Source of the DNA: a virus
Taxonomy: Duplodnaviria; Caudoviricetes
Virus record (IMG/VR): IMGVR_UViG_3300006641_000002
Span: 1-60,638 of that record
Direction: 5' to 3' (one strand)
DNA length: 60,638 bases
Shown: one piece after another, positions 1,148-58,536 of the stretch
Layout: each line of letters starts with the position of its first letter
Numbering within the stretch: the stretch's first letter is position 1
Notes under the pieces: generated by a model
The model's database searches: none
Seen by the model: the letters and a program-made list of their open reading frames with translations, nothing else
What the model was told of the DNA's origin: nothing
Position numbers and translations under genes: made by a program

Positions 1148-2622
1148 TCAAATTCGTACCAATGCCGCGGCTGCGACGGTTGCTCACGCTTTAGCGCAAC
1201 GTTGGCCTCGTGCAACACGCTATCGGGTGCAACTTCGTCGCGTTCTGATGGCTCAAGACCGCGCCACGCCATGTGATTCGCCACGAACATCAACCGCACG
1301 GTGCCCGTCGGCCCGCCTCGGTTTTTTGCGACGATGATTTCGTGCTCCTTTGCCTCCGATTTTTCGCCGTCTTCCTTGTCGACGCGATGAATGAACATCA
1401 CCACGTTCGCATCCTGCTCAATGGCGCCTGACTCGCGAAGGTCGCTAAGGCGTGGCCGTGCGGCTTTGCCCACGCGCTCCTCCACCGAACGATTAAGCTG
1501 CGCCAAGGCAAGCACCGCGCAATCAAGCTCTTTTGTGAACTTCTTGAGTCCACGCGACAGCCTTGCCACCTCGTTCTCACGCGTCTCGCTTTTGCGCCGG
1601 TCGGGCGAGTCGATAAGTTGCAGGTAGTCGACCACGACGAGGGCCAGTTCGCCGCCGCTCCGCTCAATGTCCGCGCGTATCTTCCGCGCCGCCGCTCGCA
1701 TTCCGTAAAGCGACACGTTCGGATCGTCGCACACGTGCATGGTAACGGGCATCATCTCATTGACGGCGTCCGTCAAACTGCCGACGTCATCGCCACGTAG
1801 GCGAACCTTTTGCACGCGCATGTGGTCAACGTTGCCAATGGTGCTCATCGCACGCGTAGCAAGCTCCTCGCTGGTCATCTCGAGCGAAAAGAAAATGACG
1901 TGCTTTGGCTTGCTGGACGCCTCGCGCCTTCTCGCCACGTGCATGGCAAAGTTGAGTGCAAGCGCCGTCTTGCCAACGCCAGGGCGCGCGGCAAGCACGT
2001 AAAATCGCCCCCGCTGAAAGCCCACGATGTACTCGTCGAGGTCAGCGAATCCCGTTGGCTCAACATCGCTGCTTTCTCCGTTTTGTTGGCGCAAAATCAT
2101 CGACTGCAAAGCCCGCTTCGCCACGTCACCAATGCGTTCGCACGTTCGCTCTTTTGCGTTCGTCTGCTGGCAATCGAAAATCGTTTGCGCCGACCTATCG
2201 AGGTAGCTTGCAACATCTTCGGCGCCTCCCTCGAGAGCGTATCCCTCGGCGGCGATGCGATGCCCCGCCGTGATGGCCGTGCGTAGCACCCATTTCGTAT
2301 CAACGATTTTGGCGTAGCCCTCGGCGTTGCCAAGATGTTGTGCGGCGCCAAGAATGTCGGTCAGGTACGACGACCCGCCGACTTGCGCCAGCCGCCCCGT
2401 TGTCCGTAGACGCGCAAGTGTTGTGACGATGTCGACGGGCGCCCCCTCGCGATGAAGCGAAAGCATGGCCTCGAACACGCGACGATGCGCTTCGGAGTAG
2501 AATTTCTCGGGCGCTAAGAGCGACCCAAACGCGTCGATTTGCTGGCCTGTTCCCTCGATTAGAATCGCCGAAAGCACGGCGGCCTCCGCGTCGAGGTCAT
2601 GCGGTGGAATAGCGTCAACCAT
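1144..2622 (-). CDS. dnaB: Replicative DNA helicase DnaB
   Basis: N-terminal IPPHDLDAEAAVL, Walker A ARPGVGKT, FFSLEM, VVDYLQL, LAQLNR, SDLRESGAIEQDA, IVAKNRGG. Confidence 0.96.
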   Translation of the reverse strand: MVDAIPPHDLDAEAAVLSAILIEGTGQQIDAFGSLLAPEKFYSEAHRRVFEAMLSLHREGAPVDIVTTLARLRTTGRLAQVGGSSYLTDILGAAQHLGNAEGYAKIVDTKWVLRTAITAGHRIAAEGYALEGGAEDVASYLDRSAQTIFDCQQTNAKERTCERIGDVAKRALQSMILRQQNGESSDVEPTGFADLDEYIVGFQRGRFYVLAARPGVGKTALALNFAMHVARRREASSKPKHVIFFSLEMTSEELATRAMSTIGNVDHMRVQKVRLRGDDVGSLTDAVNEMMPVTMHVCDDPNVSLYGMRAAARKIRADIERSGGELALVVVDYLQLIDSPDRRKSETRENEVARLSRGLKKFTKELDCAVLALAQLNRSVEERVGKAARPRLSDLRESGAIEQDANVVMFIHRVDKEDGEKSEAKEHEIIVAKNRGGPTGTVRLMFVANHMAWRGLEPSERDEVAPDSVLHEANVALKREQPSQPRHWYEFD

Positions 2623-4177
2623 GAGAAGCCTCCGCCGTCACCTCAGGCGACGAGGACGCCGCCACCCGATGCACGCCGCTGCCATGACGTTCCGTGTACG
2701 CCGCCTCCGCCCGCGCCAATCGGTCGCGCGCTACCTCGATGGTGATGCCTTGAAAGAACGGACTGTCGCTACCACGGGACACGTGCTCGAACATCGTTTG
2801 CGCCGCCTCAAGCTCTTCGGTCAGCGGGTCGAAACGTGGCGTTTTTGCCGCCTCCGCCCGCGCCTTTTTCGCCTTGGCTTCCGCGATAATTTTTCGCACT
2901 CCGCCGTCATTGGCCCACTTCAAAAAACCTCGCGGGTCGTAGCCGTGGCGAAAGCGCGTAGCGTTTTCTTCATCCGCCCGAACCTGGCGAGCAAACGCCT
3001 CCGCCGCACCCCTAAGCCACTCGACGCGACCCCCCAAACCGCCACGAGGCCCATGCTCGTCGAGGGCGTCATCGAGAACCGCCACCTGCTCGCGCGGCAC
3101 CACGTAACGGCCACCAGTGACCGCCACGATGGCCTCCTGGTACGCCGCCGCCACGAACGATGCCTCGAACCGCCGTACCGCCTTCGGTCGCTCATGGCGA
3201 CATAGCGATTGCGGGGCCGGCAAGGGGGTTTCCGGCGCCCCATTCTCTTGAGACGAGGCGTTGCCCCAACCGGAAGGCGTCCCGATGTTCTTGCCCCCGT
3301 CTCGTGTCACGGCGAGGCCTGTCACGTTGTTGGCCTCCGGCAACGTTGCCGCTTCACCAGATTGGTCAGCTAGGTCGTGCGTGTGTTGCGCGTCTGCGAC
3401 GACTGCCGGCGTAGCCTCGACCGGCGAACCCTCGATGGTCCCGGATGCCCCCAGGGGGGCAAGGGGGGTTTTCTCTCTCTTCTCTTTCTTCTCTTTCTTC
3501 TCTTTCTTAACGTCACTCGGCGTCACGCGTGACGTCACGCTTTCAATTCTCCGCGAAACACTTGTTTTCTCGTGACTTGATGAATCCGCGACATGGTCCC
3601 CGTCGCATGTCGCGACATGGTCGACATGCATGTCGCGACACGTGTCGTTTGGCATGTCGTGCATGTCGGTGACGGCGTGACGTAACGTGTCGCATGTCGC
3701 GACCATGTCGCGTGTCGCGACCATGTCGCGTGTCGCGACCATGTCGGTCACTCGCCGGCGTTCTCGATACCGTCGGCATCGGTCGGCGTTGCCGCTTCGG
3801 TCACCCGTGACCGGCGTTGTGACGTCACGATCTTCTTTCTGTCGCTCCCGGTATCGGCGTTGACGGTCTGCATGGTTGGACGGCGTTGCCTGACGGTCGA
3901 CGAAGGTGATGTCACGCACCACGCGGTTGACCTCGTCGAGCTCAATGACGTGAGCTTCGATAAGCGCATCCATTCCCTTCTCGACGACGTCAATCGGCAA
4001 GCCGAGCAACGTTGCAAGCATGGGCATGGGATTAGGACCGAGACGCAACTCGCCGTCATGGTCAAACCGGACCACCATCGTCAAAAAGACAATGGCGGCG
4101 TCACGCGACAAGGCCACAAGCCATTCCACATCGCGCTTGTAAAGTTTGATCCAACCTTCTCGCTTGTAGTCGATCAC
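2615..4177 (-). CDS. Phage replication initiator (replisome organiser-like)
   Basis: Lies directly upstream of dnaB. GWIKLY N-terminus, winged-helix-like segment, ADRQRRYRER motifs, internal DNA repeats and a KKEKKEK linker typical of lambda O-like initiators. Confidence 0.75.
   Translation of the reverse strand: MIDYKREGWIKLYKRDVEWLVALSRDAAIVFLTMVVRFDHDGELRLGPNPMPMLATLLGLPIDVVEKGMDALIEAHVIELDEVNRVVRDITFVDRQATPSNHADRQRRYRERQKEDRDVTTPVTGDRSGNADRCRRYRERRRVTDMVATRDMVATRDMVATCDTLRHAVTDMHDMPNDTCRDMHVDHVATCDGDHVADSSSHEKTSVSRRIESVTSRVTPSDVKKEKKEKKEKREKTPLAPLGASGTIEGSPVEATPAVVADAQHTHDLADQSGEAATLPEANNVTGLAVTRDGGKNIGTPSGWGNASSQENGAPETPLPAPQSLCRHERPKAVRRFEASFVAAAYQEAIVAVTGGRYVVPREQVAVLDDALDEHGPRGGLGGRVEWLRGAAEAFARQVRADEENATRFRHGYDPRGFLKWANDGGVRKIIAEAKAKKARAEAAKTPRFDPLTEELEAAQTMFEHVSRGSDSPFFQGITIEVARDRLARAEAAYTERHGSGVHRVAASSSPEVTAEASHG
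3470..3750. repeat. Iteron-like repeats; putative origin inside the initiator gene
   Basis: 18-bp tandem TGTCGCGACCATGTCGCG at 3695, 3713 and 3731 (last partial); many CATGTCG/CGACATG copies at 3588-3670; pyrimidine tract at 3470-3508. Confidence 0.65.
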
Positions 4178-21772: not shown

Positions 21773-23113
21773 TTATTTCACGAAGTAAATGGTAAGTTTG
21801 CCGCTTCCGCCGTTGCCGCCGTTGCCCCCCGACACATCATCTGCCGCTGTGTATTTGCCAGAGCCGCCCCCGCCCCCACCTCCAGCGCCGCTGGCGAAAG
21901 CTGCTGACTGGCCGGCGAGCCCCTTCATGTATTGCTGGTCTACACCGTTGCCAAAATCCAACAAATCAACATAGCTAACACCGCCACCCGCTCCGCCGTT
22001 GCCTCCCGATCCCGCGCCTCCGCCACCTCCGCAACCGACGAACGTATCGTTAGCGACGAATGTGGTGTTTTTTGCAGGCGCACCACCAGCATAGTTTTCG
22101 GAATCAGTACCGTAATCCGCTGAGATGAAAGTAGCCGGTAGCAAGCCAGCGTCGATGAAGCCACCTATGCCGCCAGACTGCATAGGTCGATGATAATCAT
22201 ATTGGATGTCGGTCGAGATGTTCTGCGCGTCGCCGTGAAACCAAAATTCCCAAGGCACACCAGGCTTGGCGACGAGCGTTCTGTTGCTACGCACAGACGT
22301 GGCGCTGCGTCCGTTTGTGCCGCCTGCGGCACCGCGAAAGCGCACCGATCCAAACAACGTATCACCCCCACGCTTGCTTGCGCGATCGCCACCCAATCCA
22401 ATCGTGACCGCCACAGAGCCGCCAGGCGTTACGCTTGCGCGCTGCCATCGCGCTAAAGCGCCACCGCCACCGCCACCGCCATTCGATAAAATGTGACCTG
22501 TGTCATTCTTTTGCCAACCAACATTTCCTAAACCGCCATCTCCACCAGCTCCTCCGCCGCCGTAACCGTAAAGCAGCACCTCAGTCACACCAGATGGGAC
22601 CGTCCATGTTTGATTTGCGGCTGTACTCGTCAGTTCTTCTTTGCGAAGTTTCGAGCCTTGCGCCTGCTGATAAAGCCGCCACGCGCCCGCTGCAAAGATG
22701 AACGACGCCCACGGACCATCTGCCCTTTGCCCGTTGCCGATTGCGTACGTCGCACCCGATGCCGTTATCGTCACCGTCCAAGCAAAGTTTGGGTCAGCGA
22801 ATATGGATATGACCTCGCCCGTCACGACGCCCGTTGTCGAAAGCGTGAGCGTTCGGTTTGCCGTGACCGTCGCTCCTATCTCGACAATGGTATTGCCGTT
22901 GCCAACCGTTAGCGTCGTGTCGGCATTTGGCATTGCAAATACTGACTGAGCAAACCTCCCGCCGCCCGAAAGCACGATGCGACCGCTAAGCGTGTCGCCC
23001 GCTGGCGTCTTATCAAGCGCCTTGGTGAGCGCCGTGTCGATGGCGTTGGCTTCGTCGTGCGTAAACGTGTCGAGCTGATTCCAGCCCGCCTGCTTGGTTC
23101 GGTTGATGGTCAT
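21773..23113 (-). CDS. Glycine-rich tail fibre protein
   Basis: TWTVPSGVTEV...GGGGAGG...GGNGGSGKLTI glycine-rich domain; follows the baseplate genes. Confidence 0.75.
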   Translation of the reverse strand: MTINRTKQAGWNQLDTFTHDEANAIDTALTKALDKTPAGDTLSGRIVLSGGGRFAQSVFAMPNADTTLTVGNGNTIVEIGATVTANRTLTLSTTGVVTGEVISIFADPNFAWTVTITASGATYAIGNGQRADGPWASFIFAAGAWRLYQQAQGSKLRKEELTSTAANQTWTVPSGVTEVLLYGYGGGGAGGDGGLGNVGWQKNDTGHILSNGGGGGGGALARWQRASVTPGGSVAVTIGLGGDRASKRGGDTLFGSVRFRGAAGGTNGRSATSVRSNRTLVAKPGVPWEFWFHGDAQNISTDIQYDYHRPMQSGGIGGFIDAGLLPATFISADYGTDSENYAGGAPAKNTTFVANDTFVGCGGGGGAGSGGNGGAGGGVSYVDLLDFGNGVDQQYMKGLAGQSAAFASGAGGGGGGGSGKYTAADDVSGGNGGNGGSGKLTIYFVK

Positions 23114-54132: not shown

Positions 54133-55032
54133 CTAGGCCGCGAAATCTTGGCCTCGCGTCGAAAAGGCGTACGTCTTTCGTGTCATCACTTTTGCGAGCG
54201 ATGGTTTCTTTTTATTTTTACGCGCGCTTAGCCTCATTGCCAAATACGCCATAAAGCCCAAAAGCATTTGTTCTTCGTCGTGCGACAGAACGCCTGCGCA
54301 AACAAGATGGTCACACACGTGCAACAAAAGCAGCCTTCTTGGAAAAAGGCCTTGAGCTCGTGCACGCGCAATCCACCGGTCAACGTCTTCTTTGCTCACA
54401 CAAACCCAAACGCATCTTTTGCCATCTAACGGCAACGGCTTGACGTTGCTTGTCGCTACAGAAATCTGCATGTCCTTCGTTAGATGCTGACTAATTGTGT
54501 AACGAAAGATGCTTGAGACCGAACGATGCAGACGTTTTGCGCAAGCGTGAAGGAGATTCGCTATCTCGTTTGGAGTCCAAATCGAATAGCGGAACCCGTA
54601 CTTTTCCAGCCTCTTAGGCAGCGTCTTGTTCACGAGCAGCGGAGATGCACTAAAGCCTGGTATTGTTCGCGCCAACATCAGCCAAGATTCCGTAACCAAC
54701 ACCGGCTCATCAGATCGAAGAAGTATCTCGTATGTCCGCCGAAAGAACGGGTCGGTCGACGCCAACCTACTCGCCCTTGACCAAAATCGGTCCGCATCTT
54801 CGTACGGATTGACCCGAACATAAAAGGAAGGTTCCTCAACCTTGCGACTGACGCGATCGCGCTCCTTCTTTGTTAGGTGCGATTCGCAGTAGCTCATCAC
54901 GATGTGCCGCAGCACTTTGGAACGCGTGGCTCTGCCTTTTTGAGCATTCCACTTTTGAACCAAATTGTCGATAACCGCCCTCTGCTGCTTCGAGACTCGA
55001 AAGAAGACTTGAGGGTCAACGTTCTTTCCCAT
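54133..55032 (-). CDS. Multi-RHH DNA-binding protein
   Basis: Three strand-helix-helix segments (VFFRVS...RSKVLR; YSIWTP...SVSSIFR; VWVCVS...PRRLLL). The start at 55125 would overlap the terminator, so ATG 55032 is preferred. Confidence 0.55.
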   Translation of the reverse strand: MGKNVDPQVFFRVSKQQRAVIDNLVQKWNAQKGRATRSKVLRHIVMSYCESHLTKKERDRVSRKVEEPSFYVRVNPYEDADRFWSRASRLASTDPFFRRTYEILLRSDEPVLVTESWLMLARTIPGFSASPLLVNKTLPKRLEKYGFRYSIWTPNEIANLLHACAKRLHRSVSSIFRYTISQHLTKDMQISVATSNVKPLPLDGKRCVWVCVSKEDVDRWIARARAQGLFPRRLLLLHVCDHLVCAGVLSHDEEQMLLGFMAYLAMRLSARKNKKKPSLAKVMTRKTYAFSTRGQDFAA

Positions 55033-55058
55033 GCTCTTTGCTTTAGTCAAAGCCCAAT

Positions 55059-55106
55059 AAAAAAACCAACCACGGCAACACGTGCAGATTGCCTTGTCGT
55101 GGTTGG
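55059..55106 (-). terminator. Intrinsic terminator closing the TIGR-like operon
   Basis: Minus strand reads CCAACCAC-GACAA-GGCAA-loop-TTGCC-GTGGTTGG-TTTTTTT immediately after array 1. Confidence 0.75.
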
Positions 55107-55109
55107 TTT

Positions 55110-55727
55110 GGGGCGCTTCGACCAAGCTGTCATTCGTTCGTCAACGTTGGCTCGCTTTCGTTCGATGTCATTCGTTCAAGAAGTTTGGCTCGATCGGGGG
55201 GCATGTCATTCGTTCCTCGCAAATGGCTCGCTTAGCGTCTCTGTCATTCGTTCTCGACTGATGGCTCGCTCGATGGCGGTGTCATTCGTTCGGCGCCGAT
55301 GGCTCGCTCGGGTGACATGTCATTCGTTCCGCCCAAATGGCTCGCTCGGGTGACATGTCATTCGTTCCAACACTTTGGCTCGCTTCGGTTTTCCGACATT
55401 CGTTTGCGTATTCTTGGCTCGCTCAAGAAACATGTCATTCGTTCGATCGCCATGGCTCGCTCAACCGGCGTGTCATTCGTTCCTGCACATTGGCTCGTTT
55501 CCATACCTTGTCATTCGTTCCGACAAGGTGGCTCGCTCCGATGCTTTGTCATTCGTTCATCGGCCGTGGCTCGCTCGGAAGGCGTGTCATTCGTCCCATC
55601 GTGATGGCTCGCTTAGGTGATGTGTCATTCGTTCTTGGTGCTTGGCTCGCTTCAGCCTCATGTCATTCGTTCCATCGTGATGGCTCGCTTCGGTTAAGTG
55701 TCATTCGTTCTTCCTATCCGGCCACTC
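55110..55727 (-). ncRNA. TIGR-like dual-repeat guide array 1 (16 units, 38-nt period)
   Basis: Plus strand TGTCATTCGTTC-N8-TGGCTCGCT-N9 at 55128, 55166, 55204, 55242, 55280, 55318, 55356, 55394 (degenerate, 39 nt), 55433, 55471, 55509, 55547, 55585, 55623, 55661, 55699. Spacers are variable. Confidence 0.88.
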
Positions 55728-55734
55728 AAATCCT

Positions 55735-56862
55735 CTATTCCGCCGCGTCCTCCATCAACGCGTCTTCGACGCCGTCGACGTCATCCATCTCGGCGCCGTC
55801 CACTAACTCGGTCATGTCGCCATCGGCGTCGCCTGTCGAATTGAAGAGCGCAAGAGGATGCTCGATGCGGTACTTGCCTACGTCGCCGACAAGGGCGAGG
55901 GCTTCGTCGACACTCAGCATCGTCGGCGCGTTCACGACGATTTTGCCGCCGTGCCCATACCCTAGCTTTGCCGCGTAGTAATCGGGCCACACAGGCAACC
56001 CCTCAATGGCTCTCCACACGGTGTAGAGATCGTTGAGAAACACGCGCCCCGCCGTGTGCCATCCGGCGCTAAATGCGCTGCCCTTGGTCGGCTCACGACC
56101 ACCGGGAGGCGCTTGCCGACTAAGCACGCCGATCTTCTTGTTTGCCCAGACGTCGAGGTACTTACTCGACACGTGCCCGCCGTGTTTCTTGGGGCTCGCG
56201 TTTTTGAAGCTAGCGGTCAAAAACTGGTACATCCGTTTGCGAAGCTCGGAATTGTACCCGTTCTTTTGCCCCTTCGTCCTACGGTCTAGCCGGTTGATTT
56301 TGTGGTCAATCGCAAAGCCCGCGTACTTGATGATCGCCGACGGCTTGCGCGCCCTGATGACGTTGCCTCTGTCATCAGTCGAGTCGTGGATATCAATCTC
56401 ACTCACGAGATACGCGCTCACCACTGGACCGAGGCCGTACACGTGCTTCAGAAATTGGTTGTAGATAGGGACGCTTTTGAGTGCGCGGGCCATGAGCGCC
56501 TCTTTCTTTTTCATCTCGCCCTCCATTGAAAGCGTGAAGCGCGCTTTGCCGTCGTCGATGTACCCGCTTCGCTTCTTTGCCTTGTCGCCATGGCATAGCT
56601 GCTGAATTTCCTCGCGCATCACCATCGGCAAAGGGCTCGGGATGATTTGGCCTTTGCGGTCACCCTTGCGAATCGTCCTGTCACGGCACACCGAATCGAA
56701 AGACTGCATCGTTCGATATAGCGCGTGGTGCTCAAGCGTTAGCTGCCTGAGCTCCGCAATAGGGTCGTCTTTCGGTGGAGGCATCGGTGTCGCCTTGCGT
56801 TTGCGCTCGGCGGCGGCGATGAACTTTTCAGCTTCGGTCTTCTCTTTTTTAATACGTGGCAT
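55735..56862 (-). CDS. TasA-like Nop/IS110-C-terminal-domain RNA-binding protein, no nuclease domain
   Basis: Coiled coil (ELRQL...), FLKHVYGLGPVVSAYLVSEID, PSAIIKYAGF, GYNSELRKRMY, WRAIEGLPV..DY...KLG. Lacks the N-terminal DEDD RuvC and the IS110 catalytic SG motif. Flanked by two arrays. ATG 56862 has a GGGGA RBS; the ORF extends to 56910. Confidence 0.82.
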   Translation of the reverse strand: MPRIKKEKTEAEKFIAAAERKRKATPMPPPKDDPIAELRQLTLEHHALYRTMQSFDSVCRDRTIRKGDRKGQIIPSPLPMVMREEIQQLCHGDKAKKRSGYIDDGKARFTLSMEGEMKKKEALMARALKSVPIYNQFLKHVYGLGPVVSAYLVSEIDIHDSTDDRGNVIRARKPSAIIKYAGFAIDHKINRLDRRTKGQKNGYNSELRKRMYQFLTASFKNASPKKHGGHVSSKYLDVWANKKIGVLSRQAPPGGREPTKGSAFSAGWHTAGRVFLNDLYTVWRAIEGLPVWPDYYAAKLGYGHGGKIVVNAPTMLSVDEALALVGDVGKYRIEHPLALFNSTGDADGDMTELVDGAEMDDVDGVEDALMEDAAE

Positions 56863-56897
56863 TGCATTCCCCGCTTTGGTGTTCACTGATTTGGATT

Positions 56898-57134
56898 TGA
56901 TTCGCTTCACGTCAATGTCATTCGTTCTGGACGACTGGCTCGCTCAGGTGACATGTCATTCGTTCTCGGCAACTGGCTCGCTCCGAAGGCGTGTCATTCG
57001 TTCGGCCGGGATGGCTCGCTCGACCAAGCTGTCATTCGTTCTGCCAGTATGGCTCGCTCTGGTCGCATGTCATTCGTTCTCGAGATGTGGCTCGCTCTAA
57101 TCGACTGTCATTCGTTCTTCCGCATCGGCCCATC
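56898..57134 (-). ncRNA. TIGR-like dual-repeat guide array 2 (6 units, 38-nt period)
   Basis: Same two repeats at 56916, 56954, 56992, 57030, 57068 and 57106. Confidence 0.88.
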
Positions 57135-57141
57135 AACTCGG

Positions 57142-57792
57142 CTATTCCCCGCCGGTAGTCACCTTCGCAAACCTGCCGCCAAATTCCGCCTCAGCCAACG
57201 ATGGCGCCGCCTTGGTGATGCCGGGCCTTGCGATGACTTCGGTATCGTTTGCAGCACTCCGTACGGCCGCGAGTTGCGCTTCAAGAATCGCAATCTTTGC
57301 GGCCTTCTCTTTGCACGCAGGACACTCCACCGTGCGCTTCGCAGTCTTGCCCTTCAAGTATGGCGCAAGCTCCTTGTAGCCCTTCAGCACGCTTACAATC
57401 TTCGGCTTACTGATAGGCGGAGCACCGTGATACTGGCCTATCGTTTCGTTCTTGCACGCAACGATAGCAGTGACGACGTGTGGCAATAGTTCGGTGTCGC
57501 AGTAGCGCCGAAACACAAACGCCGCCGCGTCGTGCTCCAACATCACCGCCACCTCTGGCGTTAGGCCGGAGTAGGCTTCCGCGCGACGACGAAACCACCC
57601 GTACTTATGGCCAAACGTTGCAAATACCCATTTGCGCGGGTCTTTGTAATCAGTCAAATCGCGATACTCCGGCCAATGCTTGACGATCTCTACGATGATG
57701 TTGGCTGCCAACATCGGGCCAATCGCCCCGTCACTCAGACACTTCATCGCCTTCGCAACACGTCGATTAAACTCTTGCTCGTTCACGACCAT
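57142..57792 (-). CDS. Hypothetical protein co-transcribed with the TIGR-like locus
   Basis: 216 aa, GAGGGGA RBS, CPAC followed by a short coiled coil; stop lies 7 nt before array 2. Confidence 0.7.
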   Translation of the reverse strand: MVVNEQEFNRRVAKAMKCLSDGAIGPMLAANIIVEIVKHWPEYRDLTDYKDPRKWVFATFGHKYGWFRRRAEAYSGLTPEVAVMLEHDAAAFVFRRYCDTELLPHVVTAIVACKNETIGQYHGAPPISKPKIVSVLKGYKELAPYLKGKTAKRTVECPACKEKAAKIAILEAQLAAVRSAANDTEVIARPGITKAAPSLAEAEFGGRFAKVTTGGE

Positions 57793-58056: not shown

Positions 58057-58536
58057 TCACATCGACGCGGCCACCTTCGGCGCCACCGCTCGCATCGACG
58101 CCCATACCGCTATGCCCGTAGCGTCCCGCGTGTGCACGTTGCCCTTCTGCAAACACTCGACAACCGACGGCAATAACCTCGCTATCACCTCGTCATAACT
58201 CTGCCCGCGCTTCAACGTGCCCATCACGGCCTTGCGCCATGCCTGCGCGCTCGTCGTTACGACCTCGATGCCTTTCGCCGCCGCAAGCCCCGCTACAACG
58301 CCGCCGGCATACTGCGCGGCCAAGAGATGCTTGGCACGAAACGGCTGAAACACGCCGCCCTCGGCGCACTCGACGGCCACCAGGCTCGGCCCTATCGTAT
58401 CGAGAAGCACCCCGATGGCGTAGGCGGTCGACGGCACCATCGCCTTGCCAATATGGCGCACCCGCCCGGGCCGTATCGGCGTTACCCACGACACGGCGGT
58501 CTGCACACTCCCAGGGTCGACGCCTGCGATGACCAC
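58057..58536 (-). CDS. RuvC-like Holliday junction resolvase
   Basis: AGVDPG, VAVE, AQAWRKAVMG, RDATGIA acidic catalytic pattern. Confidence 0.82.
   Translation of the reverse strand: MVIAGVDPGSVQTAVSWVTPIRPGRVRHIGKAMVPSTAYAIGVLLDTIGPSLVAVECAEGGVFQPFRAKHLLAAQYAGGVVAGLAAAKGIEVVTTSAQAWRKAVMGTLKRGQSYDEVIARLLPSVVECLQKGNVHTRDATGIAVWASMRAVAPKVAASM

What the first reader, a model, noticed from the sequence alone, without database searches (positions are those of the whole stretch)
55119..57067. Half-spacers are reused in the same slot with different partners
9-nt slot: CGGGTGACA occurs in two adjacent units (55309, 55347) with variant CAGGTGACA at 56945. CGACCAAGC occurs in both arrays (55119, 57021). 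CGGAAGGCG (55576) and CCGAAGGCG (56983) differ by one base. 8-nt slot: CATCGTGA occurs at 55597 and 55673. The neighbouring spacers differ each time. This suggests guides diversify by recombination between repeats plus point mutation rather than by Cas1-like acquisition (inference).
Basis: partly seen in the sequence, partly recalled or inferred. Interest (0 to 1): 0.7.

Follow-up and report, generated by a model that had tools for sequence, protein, structure and literature searches.

The report
Reused half-guides in phage TIGR arrays
A freshwater phage carries two arrays of split RNA guides (a TIGR-Tas system), and the same guide halves recur with different partner halves, which suggests that such arrays make new guides by copying and recombining at their own repeats.

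Summary
All nine reused strings lie at the stated coordinates. In the 9-nt slot, 5 of 231 pairs differ by at most 1 base, against 0.09 expected (0 of 20,000 simulations reach this). In the 8-nt slot there is 1 exact pair of 171, against 0.007 expected. Contigs from four metagenome runs of four studies reproduce the sequence, so it is not a misassembly.

The locus is a dual-repeat TIGR system. Two arrays, of 16 and 6 units with a 38-nt period, flank a nuclease-less Tas gene of TasA type (Z 18.9 to TasH, 17.5 to TasR). It sits in a complete 60.6-kb phage genome.

Same-slot reuse recurs in three related phages with the same repeats and in one with different repeats. It never crosses slots or strands (0 of 6,716 comparisons). 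Same-array exact copies are local (7 of 7 within 3 units). In one relative the copy carries mutated repeats, which shows copying at the DNA level.

The best reading is repeat-mediated duplication, slot-preserving exchange and point mutation (confidence 0.6). The claim "rather than acquisition" is not shown, and the source of wholly new spacers and the targets remain unknown. The system is a new member of a known kind. The evolutionary inference bears on a question that two papers call open.

The parts
55111..55727 (-). Array 1, downstream of tas: 16 units with a 38-nt period. RNA sense is the minus strand. The 9-mer repeat AGCGAGCCA alternates with the 12-mer GAACGAATGACA, separated by 8-nt and 9-nt variable slots. 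The first and last 9-mers are degenerate.
56899..57134 (-). Array 2, upstream of tas: 6 units of the same two repeats. [quoted passage not shown]
55735..56862 (-). tas gene, 375 aa. It has a Nop-type RNA-binding core and no nuclease domain, so it is of TasA type. Y302 is nearly invariant (at least 90%) and H304 invariant; both lie in a low-confidence loop.
55056..55109 (-). Intrinsic terminator after array 1: a 12-bp stem followed by a run of seven U (-35.5 kcal/mol, z -4.3).
55309..55317 (-). Reused 9-slot half-spacer, family 1, copy a (CGGGTGACA on the + strand), unit 17.
55347..55355 (-). Family 1, copy b, in the adjacent unit 16. It is identical to copy a.
56945..56953 (-). Family 1, one-base variant (CAGGTGACA) in array 2, unit 5.
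55119..55127 (-). Family 2 (CGACCAAGC), last unit of array 1 (unit 22).
57021..57029 (-). Family 2, identical copy in array 2, unit 3.
55576..55584 (-). Family 3 (CGGAAGGCG), array 1, unit 10.
56983..56991 (-). Family 3, one-base variant (CCGAAGGCG), array 2, unit 4.
55597..55604 (-). Reused 8-slot half-spacer (CATCGTGA), unit 10.
55673..55680 (-). Identical 8-slot copy two units away, unit 8.
57142..57792 (-). 216-aa gene upstream of array 2. It is conserved next to tas in four related loci. Its family is unknown.
54133..55032 (-). 299-aa gene after the terminator, conserved in locus L013. Its family is unknown.

Best explanation
The two arrays are dual-repeat TIGR arrays that serve a nuclease-less TasA-type protein of a temperate freshwater phage. 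Each 38-nt unit would give one guide RNA carrying two short spacers.

The reused half-spacers are DNA-level copies made by recombination or replication slippage at the 9-nt and 12-nt repeats. Three processes appear to be at work:
1. Duplication of units or blocks, mostly over 1-3 units.
2. Slot-preserving exchange or short-patch conversion, which leaves one half copied and the other unrelated. This includes transfer between the two arrays.
3. Point substitution.

Together these produce new spacer pairings from an existing repertoire.

Shown here: the copies are real, slot- and strand-specific, local, recurrent in relatives, and in one relative carry mutated repeats.

Inferred: the molecular route (unequal crossover, slippage or conversion), that chimeric units are used as guides, and which repeat is the edge. 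I favour the 9-mer as edge, at about 70%.
For: System identity:
- The structure model (pLDDT 79.6) aligns residues 30-329 to TasH 63-306 (Z 18.9, rmsd 2.9, 223 aligned) and to TasR 112-321 (Z 17.5), in both cases after their nuclease domains.
- The top 10 Foldseek hits are all TasH or TasR.
- phmmer gives E 1.4e-7 to chain 9mty_A.

Reality of the reuse:.

Recurrence and controls, pooling the window with loci L015, L013 and L012, which share the same repeats:
- 9-slot pairs with at most 1 mismatch: 9 of 811 within a phage, against 1 of 2,270 between phages (Fisher P 4.5e-5).
- 8-slot pairs: 6 of 790 within, against 2 of 2,213 between (P 0.0055).
- Cross-slot and reverse-complement matches: 0 of 6,716 comparisons.
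- L019, which has different repeats, also shows reuse with different partners. L020 has a whole-unit tandem copy.

Copying at the DNA level:
- L013 carries the same 46-nt block twice, 114 nt apart. It includes a 12-mer with 4 substitutions and a variant 9-mer.
- L015 has an exact 38-nt tandem copy whose breakpoints must lie in the 9-mer.

Locality: 7 of 7 exact same-array copies lie within 3 units, against a 40% background (P 0.0018). These amount to about 5 independent events.

Half-only copying: the partners of the window's 9-slot copies share 0-4 of 8 bases on either side.

Duplication followed by mutation: unit pairs at least 12 of 17 identical number 9 of 846 within phages and 0 of 2,394 between phages. 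Window units 17 and 20 are 13 of 17 identical.

Age of the inter-array copies: they differ at 2 of 27 positions. Four-fold sites of tas differ by 39% from L012 (133 sites), and L012 lacks these spacers.

No Cas1 is encoded in the phage.
Against: - No recombination event was seen directly. The contigs covering the window's own strain are identical where they overlap, and X3 is dated 2025 against 2017 for X1, X2 and X4. So the arrays look stable rather than actively shuffling.
- Three separate transfers between arrays, all confined to the 9-nt slot, would each need exchange points in two repeats only 9-12 nt long. That is demanding for homologous recombination and looks more like selection on that slot.
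- The sample is small: four phages with the same repeats, plus a few others.
- Shuffling cannot explain the origin of the many spacers that have no relative anywhere.
- Breakpoints fall in both repeat types, so the copies do not settle the guide register.
- Contigs drop rare variants, so population-level chimeras could not be looked for.
Confidence: 0.6

Rival explanations
1. The reuse is kept, or arose repeatedly, because the natural targets share a half-site, for example a repeated motif in a host or rival element. On this reading, which halves recur is set by selection on guide content and not by the copying mechanism.
For: - Three of the 6 units of array 2 share their 9-slot spacer with array 1, while none of the 8-slot spacers is shared.
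- The shared halves are far better conserved (2 differences in 27 positions) than neutral sites.
- In TasR, a site fully matched to one spacer and matched 6 of 9 to the other was still cut on one strand (PMC12045711, section 6).
- The two spacers engage their target asymmetrically (10.64898/2026.08.11.744272, section 6).
Against: - No target of any kind was found, so there is no positive evidence.
- This rival does not explain co-copied mutated repeats, the strict locality of same-array copies, or whole-unit tandem copies.
- It is compatible with DNA copying as the source, so it is partly a complement and not a pure rival.
Confidence: 0.2
2. An unknown acquisition route inserts spacers or half-spacers. 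It could be Tas itself, a host factor, or host Cas1 acting in trans. Duplicates would then come from repeated sampling of one source sequence.
For: - Four interior units of array 2 have no counterpart in L012 (Tas 88% identical), and unit numbers differ, 6 against 12.
- Both L012 and a contig of run X4 (46 letters in place of 8 at 57118-57125, net +38 nt) have one extra unit at the leader-proximal end of array 2. That is a CRISPR-like polarity.
- Most spacers have no relative in any array seen here.
Against: - No Cas1 is encoded in the phage.
- Both papers I read say that no adaptation machinery is associated with TIGR loci.
- No spacer pair matches the phage itself or 1.78 Mb of the candidate host above the mispaired controls.
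- Co-copied mutated repeats show copying from the array itself.
- The extra unit rests on one low-depth contig and one relative.
Confidence: 0.12
3. The reuse is a chance coincidence or an assembly artefact.
For: The shared stretches of 19-32 nt are short. In addition, k=31 contigs break at the 32-nt repeat at 55299-55330.
Against: - Simulations give P of 5e-5 or less for the 9-slot.
- The bridging contig is present in 4 of 4 runs, and the repeat node has about double depth.
- The same phenomenon appears in independent assemblies of other phages.
Confidence: 0.01

Closest known systems
Dual-repeat TIGR-Tas systems, TasA type (Faure et al. 2025, PMC12045711)
   Same: - A Nop-domain Tas protein without a nuclease domain.
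- Arrays of two alternating short repeats (12 and 9 nt) with short spacers in between.
- Arrays both upstream and downstream of tas.
- Truncated terminal repeats followed by a terminator.
- Phage-borne, with no adaptation genes.
   Different: - The period is 38 nt. The described guide is 36 nt, and Xu et al. call it uniform for dual-repeat systems.
- Both repeats start GARCGA instead of UG. They end GCCA and GACA, where TasR repeats end CCA.
- Processing and DNA binding were not tested here.
- Half-spacer reuse is not mentioned in the parts of the papers that I read.
tasParB-tasA operons (PMC12045711, section 44)
   Same: A conserved gene sits upstream of tasA with a TIGR array between the two genes. 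The gene is conserved in four related loci.
   Different: The 216-aa protein shows no ParB signal: 0 Pfam families at E up to 0.1, 0 PHROGs, and only a chance-level PDB hit at E 1.2. I did not fold it.
CRISPR arrays
   Same: Repeat-spacer arrays that encode guides. Spacers can be lost by recombination between repeats (stated in PMC12045711, Discussion, citing Garrett 2021). Duplicated spacers in CRISPR arrays are known to me from recall only.
   Different: No Cas1 or Cas2 is present here (Cas1 tested). There are two repeat types and a split guide, so exchange at a repeat can create a new guide from two old ones. That cannot happen in a CRISPR array.
Box C/D snoRNA clusters and IS110 bridge RNAs
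   Same: A Nop-type RNA-binding protein with a two-part guide. The model also matches IS621 and ISCro4 recombinases (Z 13.3-13.7) and, weakly, a box C/D RNP (Z 6.3). That clustered snoRNA genes grow by tandem duplication and divergence is recalled, not tested here.
   Different: There is no fibrillarin or L7Ae partner and no DEDD recombinase domain. The guides sit in a regular array.

Membership tests
TIGR-Tas | Tas protein with a Nop-type RNA-binding domain | tested here: met
   The model aligns to TasH (Z 18.9, rmsd 2.9, 223 aligned) and to TasR (Z 17.5). The Foldseek top 10 are all TasH or TasR. phmmer gives E 1.4e-7 to 9mty_A. Pfam itself gave no hit above cut-off.
TIGR-Tas | Array of two distinct alternating 8-12-nt repeats separated by spacers of about 9 nt, next to tas | tested here: met
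   A 12-mer and a 9-mer alternate with 8-nt and 9-nt slots. There are 16 and 6 units on the two sides of tas.
TIGR-Tas | Array begins and ends with truncated edge repeats and is followed by an intrinsic terminator | tested here: met
   The first 9-mers keep their 3' half and the last keep their 5' half. This holds in all 8 arrays of the 4 phages. The terminator after array 1 has a z-score of -4.3.
TIGR-Tas | Box D (UG) at the start and box C (CCA) at the end of both repeats, covarying between edge and loop | tested here: inconclusive
   Both repeats start GARCGA and end GCCA or GACA, so the two repeats resemble each other, but not in the TasR consensus. The paper says these motifs can diverge.
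TIGR-Tas | Processing into discrete guide RNAs of about 36 nt | not testable with these tools
   None of the 5 listed runs is on record as RNA. The period here is 38 nt.
TIGR-Tas | Y/H processing loop of dual-repeat Tas proteins (Xu et al. 2026 preprint, Discussion) | tested here: inconclusive
   Y302 is nearly invariant (at least 90%) and H304 invariant among 41 relatives. Both lie in a loop at 298-304 with pLDDT under 50. I did not check their equivalence to the published dyad.
TIGR-Tas | Tandem-spacer recognition of both DNA strands | not testable with these tools
   Only target searches were possible. Their outcome is given under Tried and rejected.
TasA subtype | No HNH or RuvC nuclease domain | tested here: met
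   The alignment starts after TasH residue 62 and after TasR residue 111. Only about 29 residues precede the matched core. Pfam finds no nuclease family.
CRISPR-Cas | Cas1 adaptation integrase | tested here: not met
   PF01867 gave 0 matches in the complete 60,638-bp phage record, while the control rang in 7 of 14 genomes.
tasParB-tasA operon | ParB-like protein encoded in the operon with tasA | tested here: inconclusive
   The 216-aa neighbour had no ParB signal in Pfam, PHROGs or PDB sequence searches. It was not folded.

The most novel reading that the evidence does not exclude
TIGR arrays are self-diversifying guide libraries. New guides would arise inside the array, by duplication of units, combinatorial exchange of half-spacers at the two repeat types, and point mutation. 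They would not be captured from invader DNA. TIGR spacers would then not be records of past encounters, and the split guide would itself be what makes combinatorial diversification possible.
Probability: 0.25. Interest if true: 0.8.

Novelty: new member of a known kind. Interest (0 to 1): 0.55.

Why it matters
Two papers state that how TIGR arrays arise, expand and gain spacers is unknown (PMC12045711, Discussion; 10.64898/2026.09.09.750476, Discussion). My four full-text searches found no paper that describes half-spacer reuse or recombination within TIGR arrays.

The data give a concrete, testable route. Units are copied at the repeats, halves are exchanged within their slot, and copies drift by point mutation. 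If this holds across the thousands of catalogued arrays, three things follow:
- It would explain array growth without adaptation genes.
- It would caution against reading every spacer pair as having a natural target.
- It would predict that engineered multi-guide TIGR arrays are prone to scrambling.

The case also offers a complete phage genome with a candidate host lineage in which to test it.

Tried and rejected
Closest relatives:
I could not fetch the contigs of the closest relatives: P0043 (61 kb), P0042, and a second 63.6-kb contig that encodes P0001.
- A scan of genome contigs with the Tas alignment found no relative.

Family and motif searches:
- Pfam gave nothing above cut-off for Tas or its two neighbours.
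- Rfam gave only two chance-level hits in 54900-57300.
- The promoter and terminator scan gave nothing above shuffles and missed the large-loop terminator, which I then folded.

Targets in the phage itself:
- With the 12-mer as edge there were 0 sites with at most 1 mismatch. In the geometry spA+rc(spB) there were 5 sites at 2 mismatches, against 1.1-1.3 for mispaired controls (P 0.007). The sites are scattered, and I do not rely on them.
- With the 9-mer as edge there was 1 site at 1 mismatch (3271-3287, inside ORF 2615-4177 on the minus strand), against 0.05 expected. At 2 mismatches or fewer the total was not above the controls.

Targets in the candidate host, using 1.78 Mb of the 3.4-Mb MAG (its 20 largest contigs):
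- With the 12-mer as edge: 0 exact, and 1 and 3 sites at 1 mismatch in the two geometries, against 2.7 and 2.5 expected.
- With the 9-mer as edge: 1 exact site with a 2-nt gap, against 0.10 expected, and 4 and 3 sites at 1 mismatch, against 2.2 and 2.3.
- None of this is significant, and the other 1.6 Mb was not fetched.
- The host MAG holds no prophage. The only match was a 40-nt low-complexity stretch.

Sharing between phages: 1 of 2,270 9-slot pairs had at most 1 mismatch, which is about chance. The collinear alignment of array 2 with L012 was not significant overall (P 0.08). Only the two end units reach 10-11 of 17.

Other arrays:
- L016 showed no tandem array at the thresholds used.
- L017 and L018 were only partly parsed.
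- phiRSL1 has a degenerate array that I did not parse.
- Microcystis phage Mvi-JY20 has 9 units with no reuse and no close relative in the phage collection.

The 216-aa gene: only 2 word-based homologues. It was not folded.

Limits of the read evidence: contigs cannot show rare variants, parts of the arrays are uncovered in X3 and X4, and the 46 inserted letters of the X4 contig were not shown.

I dropped the argument that spacer A engages first, because the slot-to-spacer assignment depends on an inferred register.
Full report
**Observation.** Window 55111-55727 and 56899-57134 hold two arrays with a 38-nt period. On the + strand each unit reads TGTCATTCGTTC, 8 variable bases, TGGCTCGCT, 9 variable bases. 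I tested chance against a null that keeps position-specific composition.
- The 9-nt slot has 2 exact pairs among 231, against 0.004 expected (P 5e-5). It has 5 pairs with at most one mismatch against 0.093 expected (0 of 20,000 simulations reach 5).
- The 8-nt slot has 1 exact pair among 171, against 0.0066 expected (P 0.007).
- The pairs form three families in the 9-nt slot and one in the 8-nt slot, touching 8 of 22 units.

**Reads.** Five runs hold the stretch. I laid four of them, from four studies. They are kept as k=31 contigs.
- In all four runs, a 66-68-nt contig joins the two adjacent CGGGTGACA copies through the intervening CGCCCAAA with no difference.
- In X1 the 32-nt shared node has depth 31.5, against 19.8, 14.9 and 13.6 for the flanking and bridging contigs (records 1, 4 and 5).
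- The other reused sites are covered without difference in two to four runs.
- X1 may be the source sample. X3 is dated 2025 and the other three 2017.
- So the copies are not a misassembly, and the arrays of this strain look stable across samples.

**What it is.**
- The window is a complete virus record of 60,638 bp with direct terminal repeats.
- The genes of the locus (the two array-flanking genes and tas) lie on the minus strand.
- The 375-aa ORF between the arrays has no Pfam hit above cut-off. By sequence it matches the solved TasR chain 9mty_A (E 1.4e-7).
- A model built on 41 relatives has pLDDT 79.6. Its ten best Foldseek matches are TasH and TasR structures.
- The model aligns at residues 30-329 to TasH 63-306 (Z 18.9) and to TasR 112-321 (Z 17.5). 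Both alignments start after the nuclease domains of those proteins. It is therefore a nuclease-less, TasA-type protein.
- After array 1 there is a 12-bp hairpin with a run of seven U on the minus strand.
- The phage encodes no Cas1.
- These features fit the published description of dual-repeat TIGR arrays (PMC12045711, section 4). The differences are a 38-nt period instead of 36 nt, and repeats that start GARCGA instead of UG.

**Register.** In RNA sense the repeats are GAACGAAUGACA (12-mer) and AGCGAGCCA (9-mer), usually preceded by a purine.
- In the window and in three relatives, all eight arrays start and end with a degenerate 9-mer. The first keeps its 3' half and the last keeps its 5' half.
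- The paper says arrays begin and end with truncated edge repeats, and that the TasR loop repeat has an A-rich centre.
- I therefore take the 9-mer as the edge and the 12-mer as the loop, at about 70% confidence. That gives 16 + 6 complete units.
- None of the conclusions below depends on this choice. I report both registers.

**Recurrence and controls.**
- Scans with the repeat pattern found the same two repeats in one other viral contig (L001 = L011 = L015, Tas about 39% identical).
- They also found them in metagenome contigs L013 = L010 (Tas 49% identical) and L012 (Tas 88% identical, 99% to cluster members P0042 and P0043).
- Each of these has same-slot near-duplicates.
- Pooled over the four phages, 9-slot pairs with at most one mismatch number 9 of 811 within a phage and 1 of 2,270 between phages (P 4.5e-5). 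8-slot pairs number 6 of 790 and 2 of 2,213 (P 0.0055).
- No 8-slot spacer matches a 9-slot spacer, in either orientation, in 6,716 comparisons. Same-slot reverse-complement matches are also absent at one mismatch or fewer.
- L019, with different repeats and a 37-nt period, has one exact and one near copy with different partners. L020 has a whole-unit tandem copy. The 9-unit array of Microcystis phage Mvi-JY20 has none.

**Nature of the copies.**
- L013 holds the same 46-nt block twice, 114 nt apart. The block includes a 12-mer with four substitutions and a variant 9-mer. That can only be a copy of array DNA.
- L015 has an exact 38-nt tandem copy whose two breakpoints must lie in the 9-mer.
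- All 7 exact same-array copies lie within three units, against a 40% background (P 0.0018). These amount to about five independent events.
- In the window, the 8-nt spacers on either side of the copied 9-nt spacers share only 0-4 of 8 bases (background mean 2.1). These are half-only copies, not diverged whole units.
- The CATCGTGA pair is different. Its 9-slot neighbours on one side share 6 of 9 bases, so it looks like a diverged block bounded by 12-mers. Breakpoints therefore occur in both repeat types.
- Whole-unit relatedness is also enriched within phages. With the 9-mer as edge, pairs at least 12 of 17 identical number 9 of 846 within phages and 0 of 2,394 between. In the other register the counts are 5 of 846 and 0 of 2,394.
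- Window units 17 and 20 share 13 of 17 bases, which fits duplication followed by point mutation.

**Turnover.** Between the window and L012, four-fold degenerate sites of tas are 61% identical (133 sites).
- Only the two end units of array 2 find a partner in L012 at about that level (10 and 11 of 17).
- The four interior units have none, and they include the three that share a 9-slot spacer with array 1.
- Unit numbers are 6 in the window and 12 in L012.
- The three inter-array families differ at 2 of 27 positions, and L012 lacks them. So these copies are much younger than the split between the two lineages, unless selection or conversion keeps them alike.
- L012 has one extra unit at the leader end. 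One X4 contig has 46 letters in place of 8 at 57118-57125, a net gain of one period at the same end.

**Targets.** Section 7 of PMC12045711 and the passage from section 8 shown give conflicting wording on which side of the paired nucleotide is cut, so I tested both geometries with gaps of 0-2.
- Neither the phage itself nor the host DNA shows an excess of matches over mispaired controls that I would rely on. Details are in Tried and rejected.
The 43-nt tRNA-Thr(CGT) 3' half at 6051-6093 matches exactly one genome among 185,579 species, and there it lies in an intact tRNA-Thr gene.
- That record is titled a MAG of Nannocystis exedens. Its 3.4 Mb holds no prophage. The 1.78 Mb that I fetched has GC 0.585, against 0.589 for the phage.

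**Literature.**
- PMC12045711: I read the outline, sections 4, 6 and 7 in full, and found passages from sections 5, 8, 9, 10, 44 and the figure legends.
- 10.64898/2026.09.09.750476: I read the outline with abstract, and sections 5 and 13.
- 10.64898/2026.08.11.744272: I read the outline with abstract, and section 6.
- The first two papers state that the origin of spacers and the expansion of arrays are unknown, and that no adaptation machinery is associated.
- Searches found no text on spacer reuse or recombination in TIGR arrays. I saw the other papers only as search listings. Supplements were closed and may list arrays that show the same thing.

**Mechanism and verdict.** The best reading (confidence 0.6) has three steps.
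1. Units or blocks are copied by slippage or unequal exchange at the repeats.
2. Halves are swapped within their slot, including between the two arrays.
3. Copies drift by point mutation.

- The copying and its slot specificity are shown. The molecular route, and the use of chimeric units as guides, are inferred.
- Selection for shared target half-sites (0.2) could explain why all three inter-array copies sit in one slot.
- An unknown acquisition route (0.12) is still needed, or at least not excluded, for spacers with no relative.
- The system itself is a new member of a known kind. The evolutionary pattern is, as far as my searches reach, not in print, and it makes a stated open question testable.

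Noticed in passing
That genome is a 3.4-Mb MAG titled Nannocystis exedens, and the match lies in an intact tRNA-Thr gene. The 1.78 Mb fetched has GC 0.585 against 0.589 for the phage. The MAG holds no prophage.
   Followed up: partly
window 57142-57792 (-): The 216-aa gene upstream of array 2 is conserved next to tas in L012 (80% aa), L013 (30%), and weakly in L017 and L018. It has no Pfam, PHROGs or PDB sequence match. It could be the counterpart of the published tasParB, but I have no evidence for that.
   Followed up: partly
window 57118-57125: One contig of run X4 (193 nt, depth 2.2) has 46 letters in place of these 8, a net gain of one 38-nt period at the leader-proximal end of array 2. 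L012 also has one extra unit there. The inserted letters were not shown.
   Followed up: partly
window 55060-55112: A minor contig in run X1 (355 nt, depth 3.6) shares the terminator with 6 differences, then continues into a different last spacer and a 12-mer repeat. A co-occurring relative therefore has another array end.
   Followed up: no
window 55699-55734 and 57106-57141: Both arrays start a few bases after a stop codon with a similar degenerate 9-mer (GAGTGGCCG and GATGGGCCG in RNA sense) and an 8-nt slot ending GGAA. L012 has GATTGGCCG there. The first 9-mer resembles the second repeat of the L019 family, GAGTGGACG.
   Followed up: partly
L022 (Microcystis phage Mvi-JY20, PP438412.1, about 22103-22406): This cultured cyanophage has a 36-nt-period dual-repeat array of about 9 units and a terminator hairpin, directly after a Tas-like hypothetical protein (XAI95461.1). 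The array overlaps an annotated small CDS on the other strand.
   Followed up: partly
L021 (Ralstonia phage phiRSL1, NC_010811.2, 13180-15642): ORF034, annotated as a transposase, is a distant Tas relative (27% identity, E 1e-10). It is followed by 1.4 kb without annotated genes, in which AG[TA]CACCC recurs at spacings of about 36 nt. This is probably a degenerate TIGR array.
   Followed up: partly
window 3271-3287: With the 9-mer as edge, unit 10 carries both a reused 8-slot and a reused 9-slot spacer. It has a single one-mismatch site inside ORF 2615-4177 on the minus strand (0.05 expected). With four register and geometry combinations tested, this is not significant.
   Followed up: partly
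window 58057-58536 (-): A RuvC-like Holliday junction resolvase (PHROGs, E 4e-5) is encoded about 1 kb from the arrays. It is a phage recombination function that could act on repeats.
   Followed up: no
L013 versus L010: All 16 units that my parser caught are identical between two metagenome contigs with different record names. This is another sign that these arrays change slowly.
   Followed up: no
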